From the IMG/VR virus record IMGVR_UViG_2526164691_000021: a stretch of 14,170 nt of DNA. One strand, given 5' to 3'. The position numbers and the translations under genes are program-made. This stretch comes from a virus (Duplodnaviria > Heunggongvirae > Uroviricota > Caudoviricetes). This document shows, in pieces, positions 3,137-14,170 of the stretch. Position 1 is the first letter of the stretch. Every line of letters begins with the position of its first letter. The notes below the pieces were generated by a model, which searched no databases, was not told the origin of the DNA, and saw only the letters and a program-made list of their open reading frames with translations.

Positions 3137-3163
3137 TTCTTGTCTCCAATAAAAAAACCTCCA

Positions 3164-3331
3164 TCAGGCGGCTTGGTGTTCTTTCAGTTCTTCAATTCGA
3201 ATATTGGTTACGTCTGCATGTGCTATCTGCGCCCATATCATCCAGTGGTCATAGCAGTCATTGATGTTCTCTGCTTCGATAACTCTGTTGAATGGTTCTC
3301 CATTCCATTCACCTGTGACTCGGAAGTGCAT
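3164..3331 (-). CDS. Small hypothetical protein, 55 aa (MHFRVTGEWNGEPFNRVIEAENINDCYDHWMIWAQIAHADVTNIRIEELKEHQAA)
   Basis: Hand-translated; ATG at 3331 preceded by GGAGA with 7-nt spacing; not in the supplied ORF track (below its length cut-off); resembles a small ORF found right of xis in lambda, as far as I recall. Confidence 0.45.
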   Translation of the reverse strand: MHFRVTGEWNGEPFNRVIEAENINDCYDHWMIWAQIAHADVTNIRIEELKEHQAA

Positions 3332-3403
3332 TTATCATCTCCATAAAACAAAATCCGCCGTAGCGAGTTCAGATAAAAGAAATCCCCGCGAGTGCGAGGA
3401 TTG

Positions 3404-3688
3404 TTATTCATTGCCGATATTCACCTTTATCGCGAACACCTTTACCGGTTTATCACCGAAGTGCGGATGTGTGATTGTCTTGATTTCATATCCGTCATAC
3501 GGAACATCAATTCTGCGGCTGGAATCGTCGCGCTTCGGATATCCCTTTGTGATAATCAGGCGGTCATACTCCCGGAACATAATTCGCTTATTCCAATAGT
3601 CATTACACAGGCGATACTCTTCCGTTTTCTCTCCTCGAATCATGGCATCGAAGTATTCACCTTTGACGGCAAGTTGTAGGTTAGCCAC
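3404..3688 (-). CDS. ASCH / DUF3850-like small protein, 94 aa
   Basis: N-terminal pattern LQLAVKGEYFDAMIRGEKTEEYR resembles the DUF3850/ASCH (PUA-like fold) signature; strong SD (AGGAGG) before ATG 3688; 8-nt overlap with the upstream gene. Confidence 0.5.
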   Translation of the reverse strand: MANLQLAVKGEYFDAMIRGEKTEEYRLCNDYWNKRIMFREYDRLIITKGYPKRDDSSRRIDVPYDGYEIKTITHPHFGDKPVKVFAIKVNIGNE

Positions 3689-3983
3689 GGTTAACCTCCT
3701 GCGGAGTAGCCTTTACAAGCACTGGTGCAAATCCATCTTCATTAAGGTTATGAATATAGACTTCTGTTCTCCTGCGCTCTTCAACGTTTAATATTGTTTC
3801 TGGATCATAAACCCATACTTTCATTCGACTATTCCATGAAGAAATCGCTTCAGATCTAGTTCGTTTTTCTGGTCCTTGGGCACCACATTTGCATGACACA
3901 TAGCGCATTTTCCCTCTGATACTGAATGAGTATCCGATGTTAAGCACAGTGGAACCACAGAATGGGCAGCGATATAGATTCAT
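3681..3983 (-). CDS. Lar-family restriction-alleviation-like protein, 100 aa, with C-terminal extension
   Basis: N-terminal CPFCG…CxC…EAISSWNSR motif typical of the Lar family (Rac prophage Lar type); ATGA stop/start overlap with the upstream gene; SD AGGTGG. Confidence 0.55.
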   Translation of the reverse strand: MNLYRCPFCGSTVLNIGYSFSIRGKMRYVSCKCGAQGPEKRTRSEAISSWNSRMKVWVYDPETILNVEERRRTEVYIHNLNEDGFAPVLVKATPQEVNRG

Positions 3984-4597
3984 AAATCATCCACCTTAGG
4001 CGCAGCTGAGACAGCAACATTCCAGAACTCAGAAAACATATTGTATGCACCAGATAGATTGGAAGTAGCATACCCTCCAAGCTCACTTCTAATCTGAACG
4101 GCTCTCATCATTTCCGGGGTTAACTCCTTCGGCACCATAACCCAACCATCCGGAGTTACCGGAGAGTTGCCACCGGGAATATTTTCCGGAATATTTTGTT
4201 GTGCGTTTTGTGGTTGTTCTGATTTACCCTGAAGCATGGCGGCGCGGCAGGCGTTCCAGCCAGCTGTTCGCCCAAGCGCGTAAACTTCAGATGGATCAAG
4301 ATAATCAATGTCATGCCCGTCCTCATCGTCGTTCTCAGGTAATGCAGCAGGTACTACCGGTACTGGCGGAGCGGCGTAGACCTCAATAATTCCATTATCA
4401 ATAGGCCATTCTCCATCCTTGAGGTAGTCACTTGTGCCGTCAACTTGCTGTTCTGCAATGTGGAATGCACCTATTGGTTTTGCTTCCAGCGATGCCAGAG
4501 CAATCCGTGCCAGTTCCATTTGTTCGCCACTAGTAAGTCCGTTATCAAGCGGGGATTTAATGAACAATTCGATACGTTCTTTAGTGATAGTGCTCAT
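3980..4597 (-). CDS. Hypothetical protein, 205 aa
   Basis: ORF track gives 238 aa from an upstream ATG, but the ATG at 4597 (MSTITKERIELF…) has a strong SD (AAGGAGAG) and lies 1 nt after the stop of the upstream gene, so I call this start; acidic, no family recognised. Confidence 0.55.
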   Translation of the reverse strand: MSTITKERIELFIKSPLDNGLTSGEQMELARIALASLEAKPIGAFHIAEQQVDGTSDYLKDGEWPIDNGIIEVYAAPPVPVVPAALPENDDEDGHDIDYLDPSEVYALGRTAGWNACRAAMLQGKSEQPQNAQQNIPENIPGGNSPVTPDGWVMVPKELTPEMMRAVQIRSELGGYATSNLSGAYNMFSEFWNVAVSAAPKVDDL

Positions 4598-4598
4598 A

Positions 4599-5156
4599 TC
4601 ACTCTCCTTTGATGCGAATGCCAGCTGCGCTTGCTGATTCTTCATATGCGCGTTTAGCAGCGTTAAGGATTGCTGCCAGTGGCGTATAGCCGCCATCCAT
4701 TCGGATTGTGTTGTGGATGCCAGCCATTGTGTCGCGCAATTTGCTGTGGCTAGCAGACAGTTCTGCTATGCACTTCTCTGCGGCATCGGCTCGATCTTTT
4801 TCACGCTGGAACATTTTGTGAGTGCGGTCTATAGCTTCGATTCGTGCCGCTGATGTCTTCTGCACGGCTTCAAGCTCAACACGCAGCTTCCCAACCGTAA
4901 GAGCAATATCCTCGTTCTTCTGGTCGCGGCGTTTGATGTATTGCTGGTTTCTTTCCCGTTCATCCAGTAGTGCCAGCACGGTTTCTGGCCCGGTCAGAAA
5001 TTTGAAGGCGTTGAGCGCATCAATATCCACACCGTAATCCTTAAGTTCCTGTTCAGTTAACAAATCATCATCAACTGGCAACATTAACAGGCGTTCCATT
5101 GCCGGAATTGCACGCTCTGCCGCCTCACGCAGTGCCTGATAGTCAATCTTGCTCAT
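4599..5156 (-). CDS. Ead/Ea22-like coiled-coil protein, 185 aa
   Basis: Central coiled-coil region and C-terminal end (…AAGIRIKGE) resemble lambda Ea22 as I recall it; ATGA overlap with the upstream gene. Confidence 0.55.
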   Translation of the reverse strand: MSKIDYQALREAAERAIPAMERLLMLPVDDDLLTEQELKDYGVDIDALNAFKFLTGPETVLALLDERERNQQYIKRRDQKNEDIALTVGKLRVELEAVQKTSAARIEAIDRTHKMFQREKDRADAAEKCIAELSASHSKLRDTMAGIHNTIRMDGGYTPLAAILNAAKRAYEESASAAGIRIKGE

Positions 5157-5710
5157 TGGATGACTCCTTTACGAAGCTGTTCGGCGATATCTTCGAGAAC
5201 GCCATCAGAGAATGAACGGTCAAAATCGCCTTCCGGCGCATTGGCCATAAACTCAGTAGAGGTAAGAATCATCCGGGCAATATCAGCGGCGTTCTTCGCA
5301 GTATCATCAATAAAACCAGCTTCCCAGGCAGCCAGCATTCTGTTCGCCACAAAGTAAGCGCCCTCCTTGCGTGCTTCAGTCTTCACTTCAGCCAGAAAAG
5401 CATCGGTGGCTGGGGTTTCAGTAATATCATCTTCCCATTCGCTAAACTCCTCACGACAAAAGTCATTAAATTCCTTCTCAGATTGCTTAAGCGAGGAATT
5501 TTCAGCAGCCATCTTCGCGCATTTAGCCTCAAGGTTATCAATCGTGATTCCAGCAGAACGACACTCCCGCAACGCCGTTTCTAGTTTTGATTCAAGTTCA
5601 CCGAACTTACGGACAAGATATTCATCGTTTGTTTCGTCAACCTTTAAATCACTTGGGATGCATTTACCTTTCAGAAAACCATCCATCTCAATTAGTGTCA
5701 TTTGTTTCAT
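5153..5710 (-). CDS. Hypothetical acidic protein, 185 aa
   Basis: ORF track start (5728) is a GTG with no SD; the ATG at 5710 ([10 protein letters not shown]…) has GGAG/GGGAAG upstream and forms an ATGA overlap with the preceding small ORF, so I call 5710. Confidence 0.5.
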
Positions 5711-5871
5711 TTCTTCCCACTCCGCCACATCGCATTCAGATATTTGTTGTCATTAACAGAACCGAAACTCTTTCTCTTAAGCAATTCCTCTCTCGATGGC
5801 ATTGGCTTTGCGCGTTGGCGAATAATCATTTCTGCCGGAAGAATGCCGGGATTGTATGCAAGTCCTCTCAT
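5707..5871 (-). CDS. Small hypothetical protein, 54 aa ([54 protein letters not shown])
   Basis: Start chosen at the ATG at 5871 with GAGGAA SD; ATGA overlap with the downstream gene; the longer 104-aa track ORF overlaps the better-supported 97-aa gene in another frame. Confidence 0.4.
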
Positions 5872-5881
5872 GGTAAATTCC

Positions 5882-6175
5882 TCAGTCATTACTGATAGCG
5901 CCATAGCGTGAGCGGTAATTACGCAGGCGCGGGTCAATTTCAGGGAAGTGGGTATATGTGGCTTTGCGGAATGGTCGGATTGATGTCTGGTAAATTCGCT
6001 CGCGTTCTTCTTTCTCTGCAAGCCATATACAATGGCGAAATTCCTTTTCCTCTTTCGTTTCCTGCGGTAGCGACATTATCCGATCGTAGTTTTTTCTGAA
6101 TTTATCCAGCACCTCCGATACGGAATTGCCGGAACAGCGGCGCGCGTCATCCGCACCATACAGAGGCGCTGGCAT
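5882..6175 (-). CDS. Hypothetical protein, 97 aa; position and size are compatible with a P22 Abc2-like anti-RecBCD protein (speculative)
   Basis: ATG at 6175 with AAGGA SD; lies downstream of the Erf/SSB pair; Abc2 assignment rests on size and synteny only. Confidence 0.5.
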
Positions 6176-6198
6176 AATTAAATCCTTATTTTTCTAAA

Positions 6199-6582
6199 TC
6201 AGAATGGGATGGAATCGTCGTATACAGGAGTGTTCTGCTGGTTACTACTTTGCTGCTGCGGGCCATTTCCTGAAGCTGCAAATCCAATCTTTGCATTCAG
6301 TAATTCAAGAGTGATTGATTGACCATTTTGCCCCTGATAAACATCAACCCTGATGTTTTCTCCGGTAATTTCCACAATGCCACCTTCAACAAGAACACTA
6401 CGGTAGTAATCCGCTTGCGCTCCCGGCTTGGCAAATACAACGGCGCTGTAGTTTGTCCATTCTTTCTTTTTTGTCTGGCGATCGTAATACTGAACGCCAG
6501 CACGGATGTTGAATCCGATATTTTCCCCGGTCTGAAACTCTCTTGCGGGCTTGTTTAGTCTTACAGTAATCGAATGTGCCAT
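6199..6582 (-). CDS. SSB-like single-stranded DNA-binding protein, 127 aa
   Basis: C-terminal acidic tail …YDDSIPF resembles the SSB protein-interaction tail DDDIPF; start placed at ATG 6582 (MAHSITV…), overlapping the Erf stop (TAATG), with AAGGAG upstream. Confidence 0.55.
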   Translation of the reverse strand: MAHSITVRLNKPAREFQTGENIGFNIRAGVQYYDRQTKKKEWTNYSAVVFAKPGAQADYYRSVLVEGGIVEITGENIRVDVYQGQNGQSITLELLNAKIGFAASGNGPQQQSSNQQNTPVYDDSIPF

Positions 6583-7187
6583 TAAGCAGCAGCTCCTTCT
6601 AATTCGTCTCGTCTGATGTTGTAAACGTCCTGCGCTTTGTGCTGCTCCGGTGTACCTTCGAGCATCTTCCACGCTTTGGCGAACGCCTGTTTAAGCTCTT
6701 CTACGGTGTTTTTCTGCATTGCTGCGTCAGTGAATGCTTTTAGAACCTGTTCAGGTGTAGGTGATGGTTTTGATTGCTTTGCTGCTGCGTTCTGCTGATG
6801 TTTATGCTCGTCGGTATCTGCATCTTTCGCATCATCAATGCCGAATAAACCATTGAGGCAATACTTGCGTGCATAAGAGCTTGTAGCTCCCGTAACTTGT
6901 GCAGAATCCATTCCTTTCTTGCTTTCTTCCTCTCGTGCAAGAGCGGTTGCCGTATGACTGTTTTCGCCATCGGTAATAGTTGCCGTGGCTTTCACATAAT
7001 ACCGATCACCAATCAACACAACTTCATCGCTGATTGATAAAAACAGGCCATTCAGTAACGGCTTAACGCCTTCAAGAATATCTTCGCAGCTTCTGTATTT
7101 ATATTTGCCGAATGAGTTGTACTGATTCTTTGGCGCGTTCAGATTCTCCTGAATAGCTGCCAGTCTTGCGTAAAATTCTTTGCTCAT
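6582..7187 (-). CDS. erf: Erf-family single-strand annealing protein (P22 Erf-like), 201 aa
   Basis: MSKEFYARLAAIQENLNAPKNQYNSFGKYKYRSCEDILEGVKPL… and the SSYARKYCLNGLFGIDD motif match the ERF family / P22 Erf as I recall it; ATG at 7187 chosen over the TTG at 7217. Confidence 0.65.
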   Translation of the reverse strand: MSKEFYARLAAIQENLNAPKNQYNSFGKYKYRSCEDILEGVKPLLNGLFLSISDEVVLIGDRYYVKATATITDGENSHTATALAREEESKKGMDSAQVTGATSSYARKYCLNGLFGIDDAKDADTDEHKHQQNAAAKQSKPSPTPEQVLKAFTDAAMQKNTVEELKQAFAKAWKMLEGTPEQHKAQDVYNIRRDELEGAAA

Positions 7188-7197
7188 ATGATTGTTC

Positions 7198-7368
7198 TCA
7201 GAATGGACACGGCCCAAGGAAATAACGCTGATTTAATACTTCGACTCGGGACAAATTAAGGCATACCCGCATTCCTTCGCGGTCACCATTATGGCGATAC
7301 CAGAGAGCTTTCTGCGTGTACATGCGCCTCTGTAACTTGCTCTCCTTCACTGTGGTTGCAAGTGACAT
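7198..7368 (-). CDS. Small hypothetical protein, 56 aa (MSLATTVKESKLQRRMYTQKALWYRHNGDREGMRVCLNLSEVEVLNQRYFLGPCPF); position corresponds to P22 arf
   Basis: Hand-translated; near-perfect SD (GAAGGAGATATTC) before ATG 7368; directly upstream of erf; not in the ORF track. Confidence 0.4.
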   Translation of the reverse strand: MSLATTVKESKLQRRMYTQKALWYRHNGDREGMRVCLNLSRVEVLNQRYFLGPCPF

Positions 7369-7443
7369 GAATATCTCCTTCGTTACCGATTAATTCTTTC
7401 ATCTGACGAATGAATTCTTCGTCTGACCAGTTATCTGTAAAAC

Positions 7444-7596
7444 TCATTTCCTGCGATAACACGGAAGGTTGATAGCTGATTTCATCGCTTTATTTGCTTC
7501 AAGCCACATTTTTGAATCACCAATAAATCGGGCTATTACTGCCTTGTTCTGTGCAGCACGAAGCATCTGGTGATTGATGGCTATTTCATTGCGCAT
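7444..7596 (-). CDS. kil: Kil-like small protein, 50 aa (MRNEIAINHQMLRAAQNKAVIARFIGDSKMWLEANKAMKSAINLPCYRRK)
   Basis: Hand-translated; …IARFIGDSKMW… resembles the lambda Kil core (…IATFIGDEKMF…) from memory; position between the CIII-like ORF and the recombination genes matches lambda synteny; SD GAGG. Confidence 0.4.
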   Translation of the reverse strand: MRNEIAINHQMLRAAQNKAVIARFIGDSKMWLEANKAMKSAINLPCYRRK

Positions 7597-7712
7597 AATA
7601 AGACCTCAACTCTTTTCCATCCGTCACGTAATTTACGGGTGATTCGTTCAAGTAAAGATTCATTTAATTGGAAGGCACCCATGCGAGCGCCTCCCGCGAT
7701 TGCGTAAATCAT
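7581..7712 (-). CDS. cIII: CIII-like protein, 43 aa (MIYAIAGGARMGAFQLNESLLERITRKLRDGWKRVEVLYCAMK)
   Basis: Hand-translated; contains the ESLLERITRKLRDGWKR helix that I recall as the conserved core of lambda/HK022 CIII; AAGGA SD before ATG 7712; the C-terminus differs from lambda CIII and is shorter. Confidence 0.5.
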   Translation of the reverse strand: MIYAIAGGARMGAFQLNESLLERITRKLRDGWKRVEVLLCAMK

Positions 7713-7736
7713 GGGTGGTTCCTTATGTTGGTTTTA

Positions 7737-8597
7737 TTAGTAGGTTATTTTTGTTGCGAATAATTCGCCTTTTACGATGGCTGTTATGATATTTTTAGCA
7801 ACATCTTCTGATGCGCCAACCTTGATAAGGTCAGCAAGTATTTTGTTATTTACTTCTTTCCGGTGAGCTTTATCCTTTGCTCTACGCTCTTCTTCGTCCT
7901 TGATTCTTTTTTCTTCTGCTATTCTGGCTTGCTCTTTTGCTTCAGCCTCGCGCAGGATTCGTTCTGCCTCCTCCTGTGCTTTACGGCGTTCTGCTTCAAT
8001 TGCCGCATGCTTTTCTCTTTCAGCTCGTTCTGCTGCCTCTTTTGCTTCGCGCTGTGCTCGTTGCTCGGCTTCAATGCGTTCACGCTCTGCACGTTCCTCT
8101 GCGGCCTTAGCTTCTGCTTCTCGCCTTGCTGCTGCTTCAATTTCGGCTTTTGCCTTTGCTTCGGCTTCAGCTCTGGCTTTCTCTTCAGCTTCTCTTTTTA
8201 AGCGTTCTTCATGCTCTCGCTTTTCCTGCTCCGCTTTGAGTCTTGCCTCTTCTCTTTGGCGGTCAAATTCGCGATCCATCAAAATCGCTATTTCATGGTC
8301 AGACTCAATTTGCTTTGCGAGAGCTTCAGCTGCTGCCTTAGCTTCTTCTTCGGCTTTAATCCGCGCCTGTTCTTCCTCATAATCAGTAAGAGGCTGGCGC
8401 GCCTTGGCTTTCAGTTCATCAAGGCGATCGCGCACTGTCTTGCGGTTAGCATCAATTAGCTTTGGAATTTCCTTCAGTTCAGCAACAAGGTCTTTGCCAA
8501 GACCATCGAGATATGTTTTCGTCTGCGCAACTTTATACGCCAGATAAGCGATCTCCTTTCTGCCCTTTGCCGTTGTGATATCAGGCACAAAGGACAT
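7737..8597 (-). CDS. Hypothetical protein, 286 aa, with a long E/A/K/R-rich charged repeat region
   Basis: Long ORF; the central ~170 aa are EAEAKAKAE / ERAEREK-type low-complexity repeats, seen at DNA level as reiterated gcttc/gctgc units; no family recognised; weak SD at the called start. Confidence 0.55.
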   Translation of the reverse strand: MSFVPDITTAKGRKEIAYLAYKVAQTKTYLDGLGKDLVAELKEIPKLIDANRKTVRDRLDELKAKARQPLTDYEEEQARIKAEEEAKAAAEALAKQIESDHEIAILMDREFDRQREEARLKAEQEKREHEERLKREAEEKARAEAEAKAKAEIEAAARREAEAKAAEERAERERIEAEQRAQREAKEAAERAEREKHAAIEAERRKAQEEAERILREAEAKEQARIAEEKRIKDEEERRAKDKAHRKEVNNKILADLIKVGASEDVAKNIITAIVKGELFATKITY

Positions 8598-8715
8598 AAC
8601 TTCACGTTCAACCTTTTGAAGAATTTCTTCAATCTGGTCGGCAGACTAAATTACAGTCATTGCATTTGCTTTTTCAATAACAACTAAATCTGTTACTTCA
8701 CTCATATATCCTCCG

Positions 8716-8746
8716 TCAAAAAAATTGCCCTCACACTGGAGGGCAA
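8716..8746 (-). terminator. Intrinsic terminator-like hairpin on the leftward transcript (tL1-like position)
   Basis: 8-bp stem TTGCCCTC / GAGGGCAA (8725-8732 / 8739-8746) with 6-nt loop, followed on the - strand by a U7 tract (complement of 8716-8724). Confidence 0.45.
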
Positions 8747-8967
8747 AGAAGATTTCCAATAATCAGAACAAGTCGGCTCCTGTTTAGTTACGAGCGACAT
8801 TGCTCCGTGTATTCACTCGTTGGAATGAATACACAGTGCAGTGTTTATTCGTATGCCTGTCTTTTAACCACATCAGGCTCGGTGGTTCTCGTGTACCCCT
8901 ACAGCGAGAAATCGGATAAACTCTATTCACCCCTACAGAGAGAATGATGGAGATTCTGGATTTGCCC

Positions 8968-9873
8968 CTATATTTCCAGACACCTGTTATCACTTAACCC
9001 ATTACTGGCTTGCTGCCGTAGATATTCCCGTGGCGAGCGATAACCCAGTGCACTATGCGGATGCCATTCGTTATAATGCTCGAACGCCTCTGCAAGGTTC
9101 TTTGCTGCCGTTAACCCGTCTGGTTTGGGCATGACACTGATGTAGTCACGCTTTATCGTTTTCACGAAGCTCTCTGCTATGCCGTTACTCTCCGGACTCC
9201 GCACCGCCGTGCTCTTCGGTTCAAGCCCCAACATCCGGGCAAACTGCCGTGTTTCATTAGCCCGGTAGCATGAACCATTATCCGTCAGCCACTCTACTGG
9301 AGACGCCGGAAGCTCGTTGCCGAAGCGGCGTTCCACCGCTCCCAGCATGACGTCCTGTACTGTTTCACTGTTGAAGCCGCCCGTAGTGACCGCCCAGTGC
9401 AGTGCCTCACGGTCACAGCAGTCCAGCGCGAACGTGACTCGCAGTTTTTCTCCGTTATCACAGCGGAACTCGAACCCGTCAGAGCACCATCGCTGATTAC
9501 TTTCTTTCACAGCCACTCTGCCTGTATGTGCCCGTTTCGATGGCGGTACAGCAGGTTTTCGCTCAAGCAACAGCGCATTCTGGCGCATGATCCGGTAAAC
9601 ACGTTTGGCATTGATCGCAGGCATACCATCAAGTTCTGCCTGTCTGCGAAGCAGCGCCCATACCCGACGATAACCATACGTGGGCAGCTCTCCGATAACA
9701 TGGTGTATACGGAGAAGCACATCCGTATCATCAGTGTGACGACTGCGGCGGCCATCCATCCAGTCATCGGTTCGTCTGAGAATGACGTGCAACTGCGCAC
9801 GCGACACCCGGAGACAACGGCTGACTAAGCTTACTCCCCATCCCCGGGCAATAAGGGCGCGTGCGCTATCCAC
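8968..9873 (-). CDS. insD: IS2 transposase OrfB (InsD), normally made as an InsCD fusion by -1 frameshift
   Basis: 301-aa ORF with IS3-family DDE transposase sequence matching IS2 InsD; overlaps the insC 3' end in the -1 frame. Confidence 0.9.
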
Positions 9874-10196
9874 TTTTTTGCCCGTCCATATTCAACGGCT
9901 TCTTTGAGGAGTTCATTTTCCATCGTTTTCTTGCCGAGCAGGCGCTGGAGTTCTTTAATCTGCTTCATGGCGGCAGCAAGTTCAGAGGCAGGAACAACCT
10001 GTTCTCCGGCGGCGACAGCAGTAAGACTTCCTTCCTGGTATTGCTTACGCCAGAGAAATAACTGGCTGGCTGCTACACCATGTTGCCGGGCAACGAGGGA
10101 GACCGTCATCCCTGGTTCAAAGCTCTGCTGAACAATTGCGATCTTTTCCTGTGTGGTACGCCGTCTGCGTTTCTCCGGTCCTAAGACATCAATCAT
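9831..10196 (-). CDS. insC: IS2 OrfA (InsC), HTH regulatory / transposase N-terminal protein
   Basis: 121 aa starting [41 protein letters not shown]…; the track ORF extends 15 codons upstream, but the IS2 protein starts at the ATG at 10196. Confidence 0.9.
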
Positions 10197-10296
10197 CTGC
10201 TCTCCAATGACTAGTCTAAAAACTAGTATTAAGACTATCACTTAAATAAGTGATACTGGTTGTCTGGAGATTCAGGGGGCCAGTCTAGATTCACCG

Positions 10297-13559: not shown

Positions 13560-13859
13560 ATGGAACAAACAAGTTACAGCAAACTATCACAGCGTGATGT
13601 TGATCGCGCAGAAACAGATTTACTTATCAACCTGTCAACGCTTACCCAGCGCGGTCTGGCAAAGATGATTGGCTGTCATGAATCGAAGATAAGCAGAACG
13701 GACTGGAGATTTATTGCTTCGGTCTTGTGTGCTTTCGGAATGGCATCAGACATCAGTCCGATTAGCAGAGCTTTTAAGTATGCGCTTGATGGACTCACCA
13801 ATAAAAAACGCCCGGTGTGCAAGACCGAGCGTTCTGAACAAATCCAGATGGAATTCTGA
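13560..13859 (+). CDS. cII: CII transcriptional activator, 99 aa
   Basis: C-terminal …LTNKKRPVCKTERSEQIQMEF matches the lambda CII C-terminus (…TNKKRPAATERSEQIQMEF) from memory; HTH in the middle; positioned between cro and O. Confidence 0.9.
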   Translation: MEQTSYSKLSQRDVDRAETDLLINLSTLTQRGLAKMIGCHESKISRTDWRFIASVLCAFGMASDISPISRAFKYALDGLTNKKRPVCKTERSEQIQMEF

Positions 13860-13891
13860 GGGAATTACTGGATCAATCCACAGGAGTCATT

Positions 13892-14170
13892 ATGACAAAT
13901 ACAGCAAAAATACTCAACTTCGGCAGAGGTAACTTTGCCGAACAGGAGCGTAATGTGGCAGATCTCGATGATGGTTACGCCAGACTATCAAATATGCTGC
14001 TTGAGGCCTATTCAGGCGCAGATCTGACCAAGCGACAGTTTAAAGTGCTGCTTGCCATTCTGCGTAAAACCTATGGGTGGAATAAACCAATGGACAGAAT
14101 CACCGATTCTCAACTTAGCGAGATTACAAAGTTACCTGTCAAACGGTGCAATGAAGCCAAGTTAGAACTC
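13892..14170 (+). CDS. O: Replication initiator O, N-terminal 93 codons (3'-truncated by the window end)
   Basis: MTNTAKILNFGRGNFAGQERNVADLDDGYARLSNMLLEAYSGADLTKRQFKVLLAILRKTYGWNKPMDRITDSQLSEITKLPVKRCNEAKLEL matches lambda O from memory; AGGAG SD. Confidence 0.9.
   Translation, partial: MTNTAKILNFGRGNFAEQERNVADLDDGYARLSNMLLEAYSGADLTKRQFKVLLAILRKTYGWNKPMDRITDSQLSEITKLPVKRCNEAKLEL

What the first reader, a model, noticed from the sequence alone, without database searches (positions are those of the whole stretch)
6199..7368. P22-type Erf plus SSB-like recombination module in a prophage with lambda-type int/xis and cII/O
Where lambda carries exo-bet-gam, this prophage has a small arf-like ORF, an Erf-family annealing protein and an SSB-like protein with a C-terminal …DDSIPF tail that resembles the host SSB interaction tail. 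The operon ends (int, xis; cII, O) look lambda-like while the interior does not, which is a clear mosaic-module exchange. The pairing of Erf with its own SSB-like partner is worth confirming.
Basis: partly seen in the sequence, partly recalled or inferred. Interest (0 to 1): 0.45.

Follow-up and report, generated by a model that had tools for sequence, protein, structure and literature searches.

The report
Erf plus phage SSB recombination module
This prophage carries the already-catalogued HK97-type recombination cassette (a strand-annealing protein, its own small single-strand-DNA-binding protein and an anti-RecBCD protein) in place of lambda's exo-bet-gam, so the finding is real but ordinary; the only fresh lead is that the annealing protein's short C-terminal domain seems to travel with the partner gene.

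Summary
On the minus strand, 7187-6582 encodes a 201-aa ERF-family protein (PF04404, E 2e-44). It is 100% identical to HK97 Erf and 75% to P22 Erf. Overlapping its stop (TAATG), 6582-6199 encodes a 127-aa protein with no Pfam hit. Several results mark it as a divergent SSB: PHROG 44 (E 3e-27), a confident predicted OB fold whose best matches are bacterial SSBs, a profile-profile match to canonical SSB (96%), a Q-rich linker and a conserved DDSIPF tip. It is 94% identical to HK97 gp40, which a 2025 paper already named SSB-1b. The "arf-like" ORF (7198-7368) is a real conserved small gene but not an Arf homologue. The weak Arf motif lies in the overlapping ORF 7289-7447. Int, Xis and O are about 98-99% lambda; cII is only 42%. 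The whole window is 100% identical to Stx1a prophages of O26-type E. coli. Verdict: an already known module, with function predicted rather than tested. New lead: the Erf C-terminal three-helix domain also occurs on Rad52, Sak4 and RecT cores, and its subtype tracks the next gene and the SSB tail.

The parts
7289..7447 (-). orf52: small ORF overlapping the kil stop (ATGA), with a weakly Arf-like N-terminus (MSFTDNWSDEEFI...)
   Evidence: PHROG 2123 at E 2.5e-41. Called by RefSeq. The N-terminal 23 aa are conserved in divergent modules (L168, L102), and there is a weak match to P22 Arf/phrog_2445 (E 0.04-0.07). No Pfam hit, including Phage_Arf.
It is a real conserved small gene directly upstream of erf, overlapping orf52 in another frame, with function unknown
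   Evidence: PHROG 1723 at E 9.4e-36. It has its own GGAG Shine-Dalgarno 6 nt before the ATG. The two-ORF arrangement recurs in nearly all of the 97 distinct upstream sequences among the Erf loci, and only HK97 has the two fused as gp42.1. It is 31-33% identical to 62-aa proteins at the same position in divergent modules. It is not homologous to P22 Arf.
6582..7187 (-). erf: ERF-family single-strand annealing protein, 201 aa
   Evidence: PF04404 at E 2.1e-44 over residues 5-143. PHROG 155 at E 2.1e-57. 100% identical to HK97 Erf and 74.6% to P22 Erf.
6591..6755 (-). Erf C-terminal domain (residues 145-199): a predicted three-helix bundle and the proposed partner/SSB-tail adaptor
   Evidence: AF2 pLDDT 87.5 with helices at residues 145-158, 162-176 and 181-199. 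Not covered by any Pfam model. P22 DNA similarity ends inside erf at 6711. The same domain occurs on Rad52/22, AAA_24/Sak4 and RecT cores.
6199..6582 (-). ssb-1b: 127-aa divergent SSB (HK97 gp40 family), translationally coupled to erf
6202..6225 (-). Acidic C-terminal tip VYDDSIPF of the SSB, following a Q/N/S-rich linker
   Evidence: Read directly from the sequence. The tip ends DDSIPF in 47 of 51 distinct SSB-1b variants in IMG/VR loci. D-D-x-[IP]-P-F is conserved in most distant homologues despite variable linker length.
   Evidence: PF11043 at E 5.6e-63 and PHROG 656 at E 7.7e-55. 92.8% identical to P22 Abc2. An AAGGA ribosome-binding site sits between the ssb stop and the abc2 start.
7444..7596 (-). 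kil (lambda-type), the upstream boundary gene of the cassette in the pL operon
   Evidence: PF06301 at E 1.7e-20. 54.5% identical to lambda Kil and unrelated to P22 Kil.

Best explanation
This is the HK97/HK022-type homologous-recombination cassette of a lambdoid Stx1a prophage. It is transcribed leftward from pL after cIII and kil.

Proposed working, by analogy with P22 and HK620:
1. Abc2 binds host RecBCD and converts it from a destroyer of linear phage DNA into a resection machine.
2. The 127-aa SSB-1b protein, an OB-fold SSB with a flexible Q-rich linker and a host-like DDSIPF tip, coats the resulting single strand.
3. Erf, a ring-forming Rad52-like annealing protein, is recruited to the SSB-coated DNA and anneals it to a complementary strand.
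4. The recruitment step is proposed to use Erf's C-terminal three-helix domain binding the SSB tip.

Shown here: the identity of the three genes, the predicted fold and architecture of the SSB, the translational coupling of erf and ssb, the conserved adjacency, and the co-variation of the Erf C-terminal domain with the next gene.

Inferred: ssDNA binding, the Erf-SSB contact, and the order of events.

The two small overlapping ORFs upstream (orf52, orf56) are conserved accessory genes of unknown role in the position of P22 arf.
For: - Gene identities: ERF, Abc2 and Kil hit Pfam far above their cut-offs, and PHROG families match all module genes.
- Erf is 100% identical to HK97 Erf, the SSB is 94% identical to HK97 gp40, and Abc2 is 93% identical to P22 Abc2.
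- Aromatic residues Y32, Y45, F50 and Y82 align with E. coli SSB W40, W54, F60 and W88 in mature numbering (the role of those residues in ssDNA stacking is from my own knowledge). These positions are invariant or always aromatic in 32 homologues.
- The linker varies in length while the DDxIPF tip stays conserved.
- Pairing: erf and ssb overlap as TAATG. An SSB follows every Erf with this C-terminal domain type in 155 of 155 IMG/VR loci. That is 149 SSB-1b (one of them frameshifted) and 6 canonical PF00436 SSBs.
- Distant SSB-1b homologues sit directly after ERF, Rad52/22 or Sak4-type annealing proteins in other genera.
- Precedents: the HK620 SSB in the same slot stimulates Sak4 annealing through its last 6 residues (PMC5928155). 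[quoted passage not shown] HK97 gp40 was classed as SSB-1b, and the anti-RecBCD+SSB+SAP cassette was listed as a functional type with 27 phages (PMC12315714).
Against: - No biochemical data exist for this SSB family, and the 2025 survey calls these SSBs unstudied.
- HK97's own gp40 ends DDSNPILI, so the tip is not strictly required for a viable phage, or that record carries a lesion.
- Frameshifted copies exist in HF4s and L162.
- P22 Erf works with no phage SSB.
- Co-inheritance of the C-terminal domain and the next gene could partly reflect simple physical linkage.
Confidence: 0.75

Rival explanations
1. The 127-aa protein is a general replication SSB of the phage. It supplements host SSB during lambda-type O/P-driven replication, and its position next to erf is incidental.
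For: It has all the hallmarks of a replicative bacterial SSB (OB fold, linker, host-like tip). It could therefore recruit host replisome partners that read the DDDIPF tip. Some homologues are not next to a recognisable annealing protein (L238, L241, L260).
Against: It lies in the early-left recombination cassette, not in the O/P replication module on the other side of the immunity region. It is translationally coupled to erf. It is adjacent to annealing proteins of three different folds across genera. Lambda itself replicates with host SSB alone (established knowledge).
Confidence: 0.12
2. The protein acts mainly as a tail decoy or end-protector. Its host-like DDSIPF tip titrates or redirects host SSB-interacting nucleases and helicases (ExoI, RecQ, RecJ, PriA), filling the accessory anti-nuclease role that Abc1 has in P22. 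On this reading it is not an Erf loader.
For: It occupies exactly the slot of P22 abc1, between erf and abc2. The tip is the most conserved feature after the OB core. Abc1 is reported to aid recombination by an unknown mechanism (PMC12315714).
Against: The aromatic positions that contact ssDNA in canonical SSB are conserved, which a pure decoy would not need. The sub-type of the Erf C-terminal domain tracks the IPF or PPF form of the phage tip. That points to a phage-phage contact rather than a phage-host one. Abc1 is an unrelated HTH protein.
Confidence: 0.08
3. The gene is a decaying passenger with no current function in this prophage.
For: Frameshifted or truncated copies occur (HF4s 94 aa, L162 78 aa), and HK97's copy has an altered tip. 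In this strain the prophage carries an IS element in the pL operon and several pseudogenes.
Against: The gene is intact here. Among the IMG/VR loci, 148 of 149 SSB-1b copies are full-length, giving 51 distinct full-length variants, of which 47 end DDSIPF. The family is conserved at 47-60% identity across Enterobacterales and metagenomic phages, with invariant core residues.
Confidence: 0.03

Closest known systems
Phage HK97 / HK022 early-left recombination region (gp42/42.1, erf, gp40, abc2)
   Same: Same gene order and essentially the same sequences. Erf is 100% identical, the SSB-like protein is 93.7% identical to HK97 gp40, and DNA identity is 95-97% over 90% of 5700-7800. HK97 gp40 is called SSB-1b, and the cassette type (anti-RecBCD + SSB + SAP, no nuclease) is listed for 27 phages in PMC12315714.
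   Different: HK97 gp40 ends DDSNPILI instead of DDSIPF. HK97 fuses the two small upstream ORFs into gp42.1 (83 aa), whereas the window and nearly all relatives keep two overlapping ORFs. The window's cassette sits in a Stx1a prophage with an IS element upstream.
Phage P22 recombination module (arf, erf, abc1, abc2)
   Same: Same order and position after cIII-kil. The Erf N-terminal annealing core is close to identical and Abc2 is 93% identical.
   Different: P22 has the HTH protein Abc1 where the SSB sits. The last ~48 residues of Erf are a different sub-type, with few identities. P22 Arf is not homologous to orf56 and only marginally similar to orf52. P22 Kil is unrelated.
Phage HK620 Sak4 + SSB(HK620) pair
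   Same: A phage annealing protein is followed in the abc1 slot by a phage SSB with an acidic ...PPF tip and then abc2. The SSB stimulates annealing and recombineering about 10-fold through its last 6 residues (PMC5928155). This is the best experimental model for how the window's pair would work.
   Different: The annealing protein is a RecA-fold Sak4, not ERF. The HK620 SSB is a different sequence type, which PMC12315714 calls SSB-2 and describes as not a homologue of bacterial SSB.
Lambda Red-beta C-terminal domain / lambda Orf (SSB-tip binders)
   Same: A small three-helix domain at the C-terminus of a Rad52-like annealing protein binds partner proteins and the SSB tip (PMC6393309). The Erf C-terminal domain is likewise predicted to be a three-helix bundle after a disordered linker.
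   Different: No sequence similarity was detected, and no specific structural match was obtained. Lambda has Exo and Gam and no phage SSB.

Membership tests
ERF superfamily (Pfam PF04404) | Profile match above the curated gathering score over the N-terminal annealing core | tested here: met
   151.6 bits against a cut-off of 25, E 2.1e-44, residues 5-143 on profile positions 1-146 of 153.
ERF superfamily (Pfam PF04404) | ssDNA annealing activity and ring-shaped oligomers | not testable with these tools
   Known for P22 Erf from the literature cited in PMC2896510. The window's core is close to identical to P22's.
Bacterial SSB family (Pfam PF00436) | Sequence-profile match to the SSB OB domain | tested here: not met
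   No Pfam family at E<=0.1. None of 120 homologues carries a precomputed SSB Pfam domain; the single Pfam entry among them is the unrelated PF00793. A profile search of 1.84 billion proteins returns only 217 clusters, not the canonical SSBs.
Bacterial SSB family (Pfam PF00436) | OB fold of the SSB type | tested here: met
Bacterial SSB family (Pfam PF00436) | Aromatic residues at the ssDNA-stacking positions (E. coli W40, W54, F60, W88) | tested here: met
   The hhalign register places Y32, Y45, F50 and Y82 at these positions. Across 32 homologues the counts are Y32 31/32, Y45 32/32, F50 32/32 and Y/F at position 82 32/32. The register comes from a profile alignment, not from a solved structure.
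Bacterial SSB family (Pfam PF00436) | Disordered low-complexity linker ending in an acidic hydrophobic tip (D-D-D-I-P-F) | tested here: met
   pLDDT is below 50 for residues 107-127. The linker is Q/N/S-rich and the tip is DDSIPF. The tip is conserved while linker length varies from about 20 to about 110 residues.
Bacterial SSB family (Pfam PF00436) | Homotetramer that binds ssDNA | not testable with these tools
   No multimer prediction or biochemistry was available.
SSB-1b (HK97 gp40 type, PMC12315714) | Close sequence relative of HK97 gp40, located inside the Rec module | tested here: met
   93.7% identity over 127 aa. The gene lies between erf and abc2.
P22 Arf (Pfam PF17585, PHROG 2445) | Profile match to Arf | tested here: not met
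   Neither orf56 nor orf52 hits any Pfam family at E<=0.1. They fall in PHROG 1723 and 2123, whereas P22 Arf is PHROG 2445. Only the N-terminus of the orf52/gp42.1 type reaches E 0.069 against PHROG 2445.
P22 Arf (Pfam PF17585, PHROG 2445) | Small ORF between kil and erf | tested here: met
   Both small ORFs lie between kil (7444-7596) and erf (start at 7187).
P22 Abc2 anti-RecBCD (Pfam PF11043) | Full-length profile match | tested here: met
   209.6 bits against a cut-off of 25, residues 1-97 of 97. 92.8% identical to P22 Abc2.
Lambda Red (exo-bet-gam) | Presence of exo, bet and gam homologues between xis and kil | tested here: not met
   No lambda DNA match between 5155 and 7614. The ORFs there match ERF, SSB, Abc2 and other families instead.

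The most novel reading that the evidence does not exclude
The last ~55 residues of Erf form a portable three-helix adaptor domain that no Pfam model covers. It has been shuffled among at least four unrelated annealing cores: ERF, Rad52/22, RecA-like Sak4/AAA_24, and RecT or RecE-RecT. It may act as the receptor for the C-terminal tip of an SSB, whether phage-encoded or host.

Its sub-types track the partner:
- The 'AWKxLxG' type goes with ...IPF tips.
- The 'WT[KS]xKLA' type goes with ...PPF tips.
- The P22 type goes with Abc1.
- SSB-1b proteins that lack a tip follow proteins that lack the domain.

If true, partner specificity in phage recombination cassettes is encoded in a swappable module. 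That module could be transplanted to re-target recombineering proteins.
Probability: 0.4. Interest if true: 0.55.

Novelty: already known. Interest (0 to 1): 0.25.

Why it matters
The cassette itself adds nothing new. It is the HK97/HK022 recombination module, present in hundreds of sequenced phages and prophages, and its SSB-like gene was already assigned by structure prediction in 2025.

It still matters modestly for two reasons:
1. This SSB family has never been tested biochemically. RefSeq still labels it 'hypothetical protein', so annotation could be improved.
2. The pairing rules seen here give a concrete, cheap experiment on how annealing proteins find SSB-coated DNA. The rules are that the annealing protein's C-terminal domain co-varies with the next gene and with the IPF or PPF form of the SSB tip. 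This question bears directly on the host range of recombineering tools.

Tried and rejected
1. A sequence search of the 127-aa protein and of its family profile against PDB sequences gave only insignificant hits (7cbs at E 0.58; Rim1 mtSSB at E 0.38). It was not used as evidence beyond noting that the Rim1 alignment falls on the SSB signature.
3. A protein search with the 64-aa C-terminal segment alone returned only fragments of the same Erf. It gave no information on distribution. tblastn against phage genomes worked instead.
4. I considered whether P22 Abc1 is a degenerate SSB. This was rejected: there is no similarity to the 127-aa protein, and Abc1 matches HTH/regulator PHROGs.
5. I considered whether orf52 and orf56 are a frameshifted single gene, as HK97 gp42.1 would suggest. 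This was rejected as the general state. The split overlapping arrangement is found in nearly all of 97 distinct upstream sequences. orf56 has its own Shine-Dalgarno and full-length homologues with independent N-termini.
6. Rfam found no RNA family in the window. The promoter/terminator scan showed nothing above chance inside the cassette.
7. The GTDB genome scan returned only 11 loci, too few for a phylogenetically corrected co-variation test.

Full report
**What the window is.** The 14.2-kb window is the left arm of a lambdoid prophage inserted at the lambda attachment site next to ybhC. It is 100% identical over its full length to the chromosomes of E. coli strains DEC9B, F2_407_2_2 and 7_33_46A. 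Apart from a ~1.3-kb insertion element, it is also identical to strains such as H19 and many O26:H11 isolates. The 5700-7800 segment is 100% identical to four deposited Stx1a-converting phages. RefSeq annotation of the same DNA lists, on the minus strand: int, xis, several small genes and pseudogenes, a DUF2737 gene, 'phage anti-RecBCD protein', 'hypothetical protein' (127 aa), 'ERF family protein', a 52-aa hypothetical, kil, cIII, a TolA-like pseudogene and an IS3-family element. These are followed by sieB, the repressor region, cII and the start of the replication gene.

**Checking the observation.** The three ORFs are present at the coordinates given.
- erf runs from the ATG at 7187 to a TAA ending at 6582 (201 aa).
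- The next gene starts with the ATG whose A is the last base of that TAA (TAATG). It runs to a TGA at 6199-6201 (127 aa, ending VYDDSIPF).
- After 23 bases that contain AAGGA, abc2 starts.
- Upstream, the kil stop overlaps the start of a 52-aa ORF (ATGA).
- A 56-aa ORF (7368-7198) starts within that ORF in another frame, behind a GGAG, and ends 10 bases before erf.

None of this is chance. ERF (PF04404) scores 151.6 bits against a cut-off of 25, Abc2 (PF11043) scores 209.6 bits and Lambda_Kil scores 72.6 bits. Every ORF of the block has a strong PHROG match.

**The annealing protein.** The 201-aa protein is 100% identical to HK97 Erf and 74.6% identical to P22 Erf. The alignment with P22 is nearly invariant through the annealing core and the linker up to ...PEQVLKAF. 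It then drops to scattered identities over the last ~48 residues. At the DNA level, P22 similarity covers 6711-7187 (78%) and resumes only at 6185 in abc2 (85%). The tail of erf and the whole next gene therefore form one block that differs from P22.

**The SSB-like protein.** Pfam finds nothing, and none of 120 homologues carries a precomputed SSB Pfam domain; the one Pfam entry in that list is the unrelated PF00793. Six lines of evidence nevertheless agree that it is a divergent SSB.
1. PHROG 44, 'single strand DNA binding protein', matches at E 2.7e-27.
2. An alignment of 32 homologues down to 47% identity shows a conserved ~100-residue N-terminal domain. It is followed by a Q/P/G-rich linker of very variable length and, in most members, a conserved D-D-x-[IP]-P-F tip.
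3. AlphaFold2 on this alignment gives pLDDT 83.7. The strand-strand-strand-helix-strand-strand topology is that of an OB fold, and the tail from residue 107 is disordered.
5. A profile-profile comparison with canonical SSBs gives probability 96.2% and E 2.2e-9.
6. In that register Y32, Y45, F50 and Y82 fall on E. coli W40, W54, F60 and W88, the residues known to stack on ssDNA (my own knowledge). These four positions are invariant or always aromatic in the family.

The family is small and distinct. A profile search of 1.84 billion cluster representatives finds 217 members at E<=1e-3 and does not reach canonical SSBs. The window's protein is 93.7% identical to HK97 gp40.

**What is already known.** A 2025 survey of 325 lambdoid phages (PMC12315714) states that HK97 gp40 has a predicted structure like bacterial SSBs and names it SSB-1b. 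It lists the combination anti-RecBCD + SSB + annealing protein without nuclease as a functional module type found in 27 phages. It also notes that these phage SSBs have not been studied experimentally. For phage HK620, the gene in the same slot encodes an SSB that stimulates the Sak4 annealing protein in vivo and in vitro through its last six residues (PMC5928155). For lambda, the C-terminal three-helix domain of Red-beta binds the last nine residues of host SSB, and this is needed for recombination (PMC6393309). The window's module is therefore a known kind, with a mechanism that can be proposed by analogy but has not been tested for Erf.

**The small ORFs.**
- The overlapping ORF (7289-7447) matches PHROG 2123 at E 2.5e-41.
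- P22 Arf belongs to PHROG 2445, and a Pfam Arf model exists (PF17585, seen in other loci). Neither window ORF matches that model.
- Only the N-terminus of the 52-aa ORF (WSDEEFI) resembles Arf (FSDEEFI), at E 0.04-0.07.
- Across 97 distinct upstream sequences from related loci, the two-ORF overlapping arrangement is the rule. HK97's fused gp42.1 is the exception.
- The 56-aa protein is 31-33% identical to 62-aa proteins encoded at the same place in divergent cassettes. One relative carries its C-terminal two-thirds behind a different N-terminus.

Both ORFs are therefore real genes of unknown function.

**Mosaic structure.**
- Lambda-like DNA: 1331-2716 (att core, int, xis; 97.9%), 3152-3407 (96.9%), 8719-8850 (99.2%) and 13794-14170 (end of cII and start of O; 96.8%).
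- Lambda-like proteins: Int 98.6%, Xis 98.6%, O (first 93 residues) 98.9%, but cII only 41.6% and Kil 54.5%.
- P22-like DNA is confined to short blocks, including abc2 and the erf core.

**An additional pattern: the Erf C-terminal domain.** I classified the IMG/VR loci recovered with Erf and with Abc1 as queries.
- Every annealing protein ending in the HK97-type tail (...ELKQAFAKAWKMLEGT.EQ.KA.DVYNIR.DELEG..) is followed by an SSB. This holds in 155 of 155 loci (74 distinct protein pairs): 149 SSB-1b, one of them frameshifted, and 6 canonical PF00436 SSBs with a DDDIPF-type tip.
- Every intact Abc1 neighbour ends in the P22-type tail (71 of 72 loci).
- The tail does not follow the core. Loci L089-L093 combine the P22-type Erf core and linker with the HK97-type tail and SSB-1b, and L089 and L090 also carry a P22-type Arf.
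- 65 of the Abc1 loci carry a Rad52/22 core (PF04098, E 7.5e-25) with the P22-type tail.

The segment is predicted as a three-helix bundle (pLDDT 87.5). The same domain is recognisable at the C-terminus of several other annealing proteins:
- a Sak4/AAA_24 protein in a Leminorella prophage, followed by SSB-1b;
- Rad52/22-core proteins in Yersinia, followed by SSB-1b;
- an Erwinia phage ATP-binding protein, and RecT or RecE-RecT proteins of epsilon15-like phages, which have no phage SSB.

At finer grain, five loci from Chimaeribacter, Rahnella and Serratia have SSB-1b ending in ...PPF. Their Erf tails share a distinct 'WT[KS]xKLA' motif, whereas ...IPF tips go with 'AWKxLxG'-type tails. Three SSB-1b homologues without any tip follow proteins without the domain.

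**Conclusion.** The finding is correct and well delimited, but it describes the known HK97/HK022-type cassette. Three things should be carried forward: a better annotation for the 127-aa gene, the corrected identity of the small ORFs and of Abc2, and the testable adaptor-domain hypothesis.

Noticed in passing
window 6591-6755 (-); loci L173, L240, L243, L244, L245, L255, L257: The ~55-aa C-terminal three-helix domain of Erf is recognisable on annealing proteins with four different cores (ERF, Rad52/22, AAA_24/Sak4, RecT and RecE-RecT). The conserved pattern is E-x-[ILV]-L-x-x-F-[TS] ... L-x-x-A-[FY] ... K-[AC]-x-[DQ]-[VI]-[YM]-x-[IV]-R-x-x-E-L. No Pfam model covers it.
   Followed up: partly
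L239, L246, L247, L254, L256 versus window, L248, L249, L240; L235, L236, L259: Sub-types of that domain track the tip of the downstream SSB-1b. 'WT[KS]xKLA' tails go with ...PPF tips (5 loci) and 'AWKxLxG' tails go with ...IPF/IPY tips. SSB-1b homologues with no tip follow proteins without the domain (3 loci). The lineages are few and related, so this is only suggestive.
   Followed up: partly
L002 1995-2384 (HK97 gp40), compared with window 6199-6225: HK97's own gp40 ends ...DDSNPILI rather than ...DDSIPF, unlike 47 of 51 distinct variants in related loci. The reference phage therefore carries an atypical, possibly defective tip or a sequencing lesion.
   Followed up: partly
window 7198-7447 (-): Two conserved small ORFs (52 and 56 aa) overlap by 80 nt in different frames between kil and erf. 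HK97 differs from the window by a 2-nt length change that fuses them into the 83-aa gp42.1. RefSeq calls only the 52-aa ORF here.
   Followed up: yes
window approx. 8956-10286: An IS3-family element (orfA/orfB with programmed frameshift, 32-nt imperfect terminal inverted repeats; it looks like IS2 from memory) is inserted just upstream of sieB. It lies inside the pL operon between the N region and cIII-kil-erf. Only 3 of the best-matching genomes carry it, and it could be polar on the recombination cassette.
   Followed up: partly
window 7737-8706 (-): A 286-aa E/K/A-rich coiled-coil ORF (PHROG 1376 and 21365, no Pfam hit) lies between cIII and the IS. RefSeq annotates it as a TolA-like pseudogene with an internal stop. 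Phage HF4s annotates its counterpart as 'antitoxin protein', with a note likening it to phi80 Agt.
   Followed up: no
window 3835-5157 (-): RefSeq marks three consecutive partial genes here (Lar family, a hypothetical, and Ea22-like). This indicates decay or rearrangement in the ea region of this prophage.
   Followed up: no
L003 1098-1382 (phage HF4s) and L162: Frameshifted SSB-1b genes (94 and 78 aa) occur in otherwise intact cassettes. HF4s annotates its truncated ORF as 'ssb protein'.
   Followed up: partly
window 8725-8746 (-), within 8719-8850: A strong terminator-like hairpin (8 pairs, T7 tail) lies in a 132-bp block 99% identical to lambda 33925-34056, upstream of the coiled-coil gene. 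It is the only convincing terminator-like site between the IS and abc2.
   Followed up: no
L096-L100, L102: Six loci pair the same HK97-type Erf tail with a canonical PF00436 SSB ending in a DDDIPF-type tip. In the two loci inspected this is followed by an extra nuclease gene (Rv2179c-like exonuclease in L096, a Cys-rich HNH-like ORF in L102) and a divergent Abc2-like gene. The SSB slot can thus be filled by two SSB families that standard sequence profiles do not connect.
   Followed up: partly
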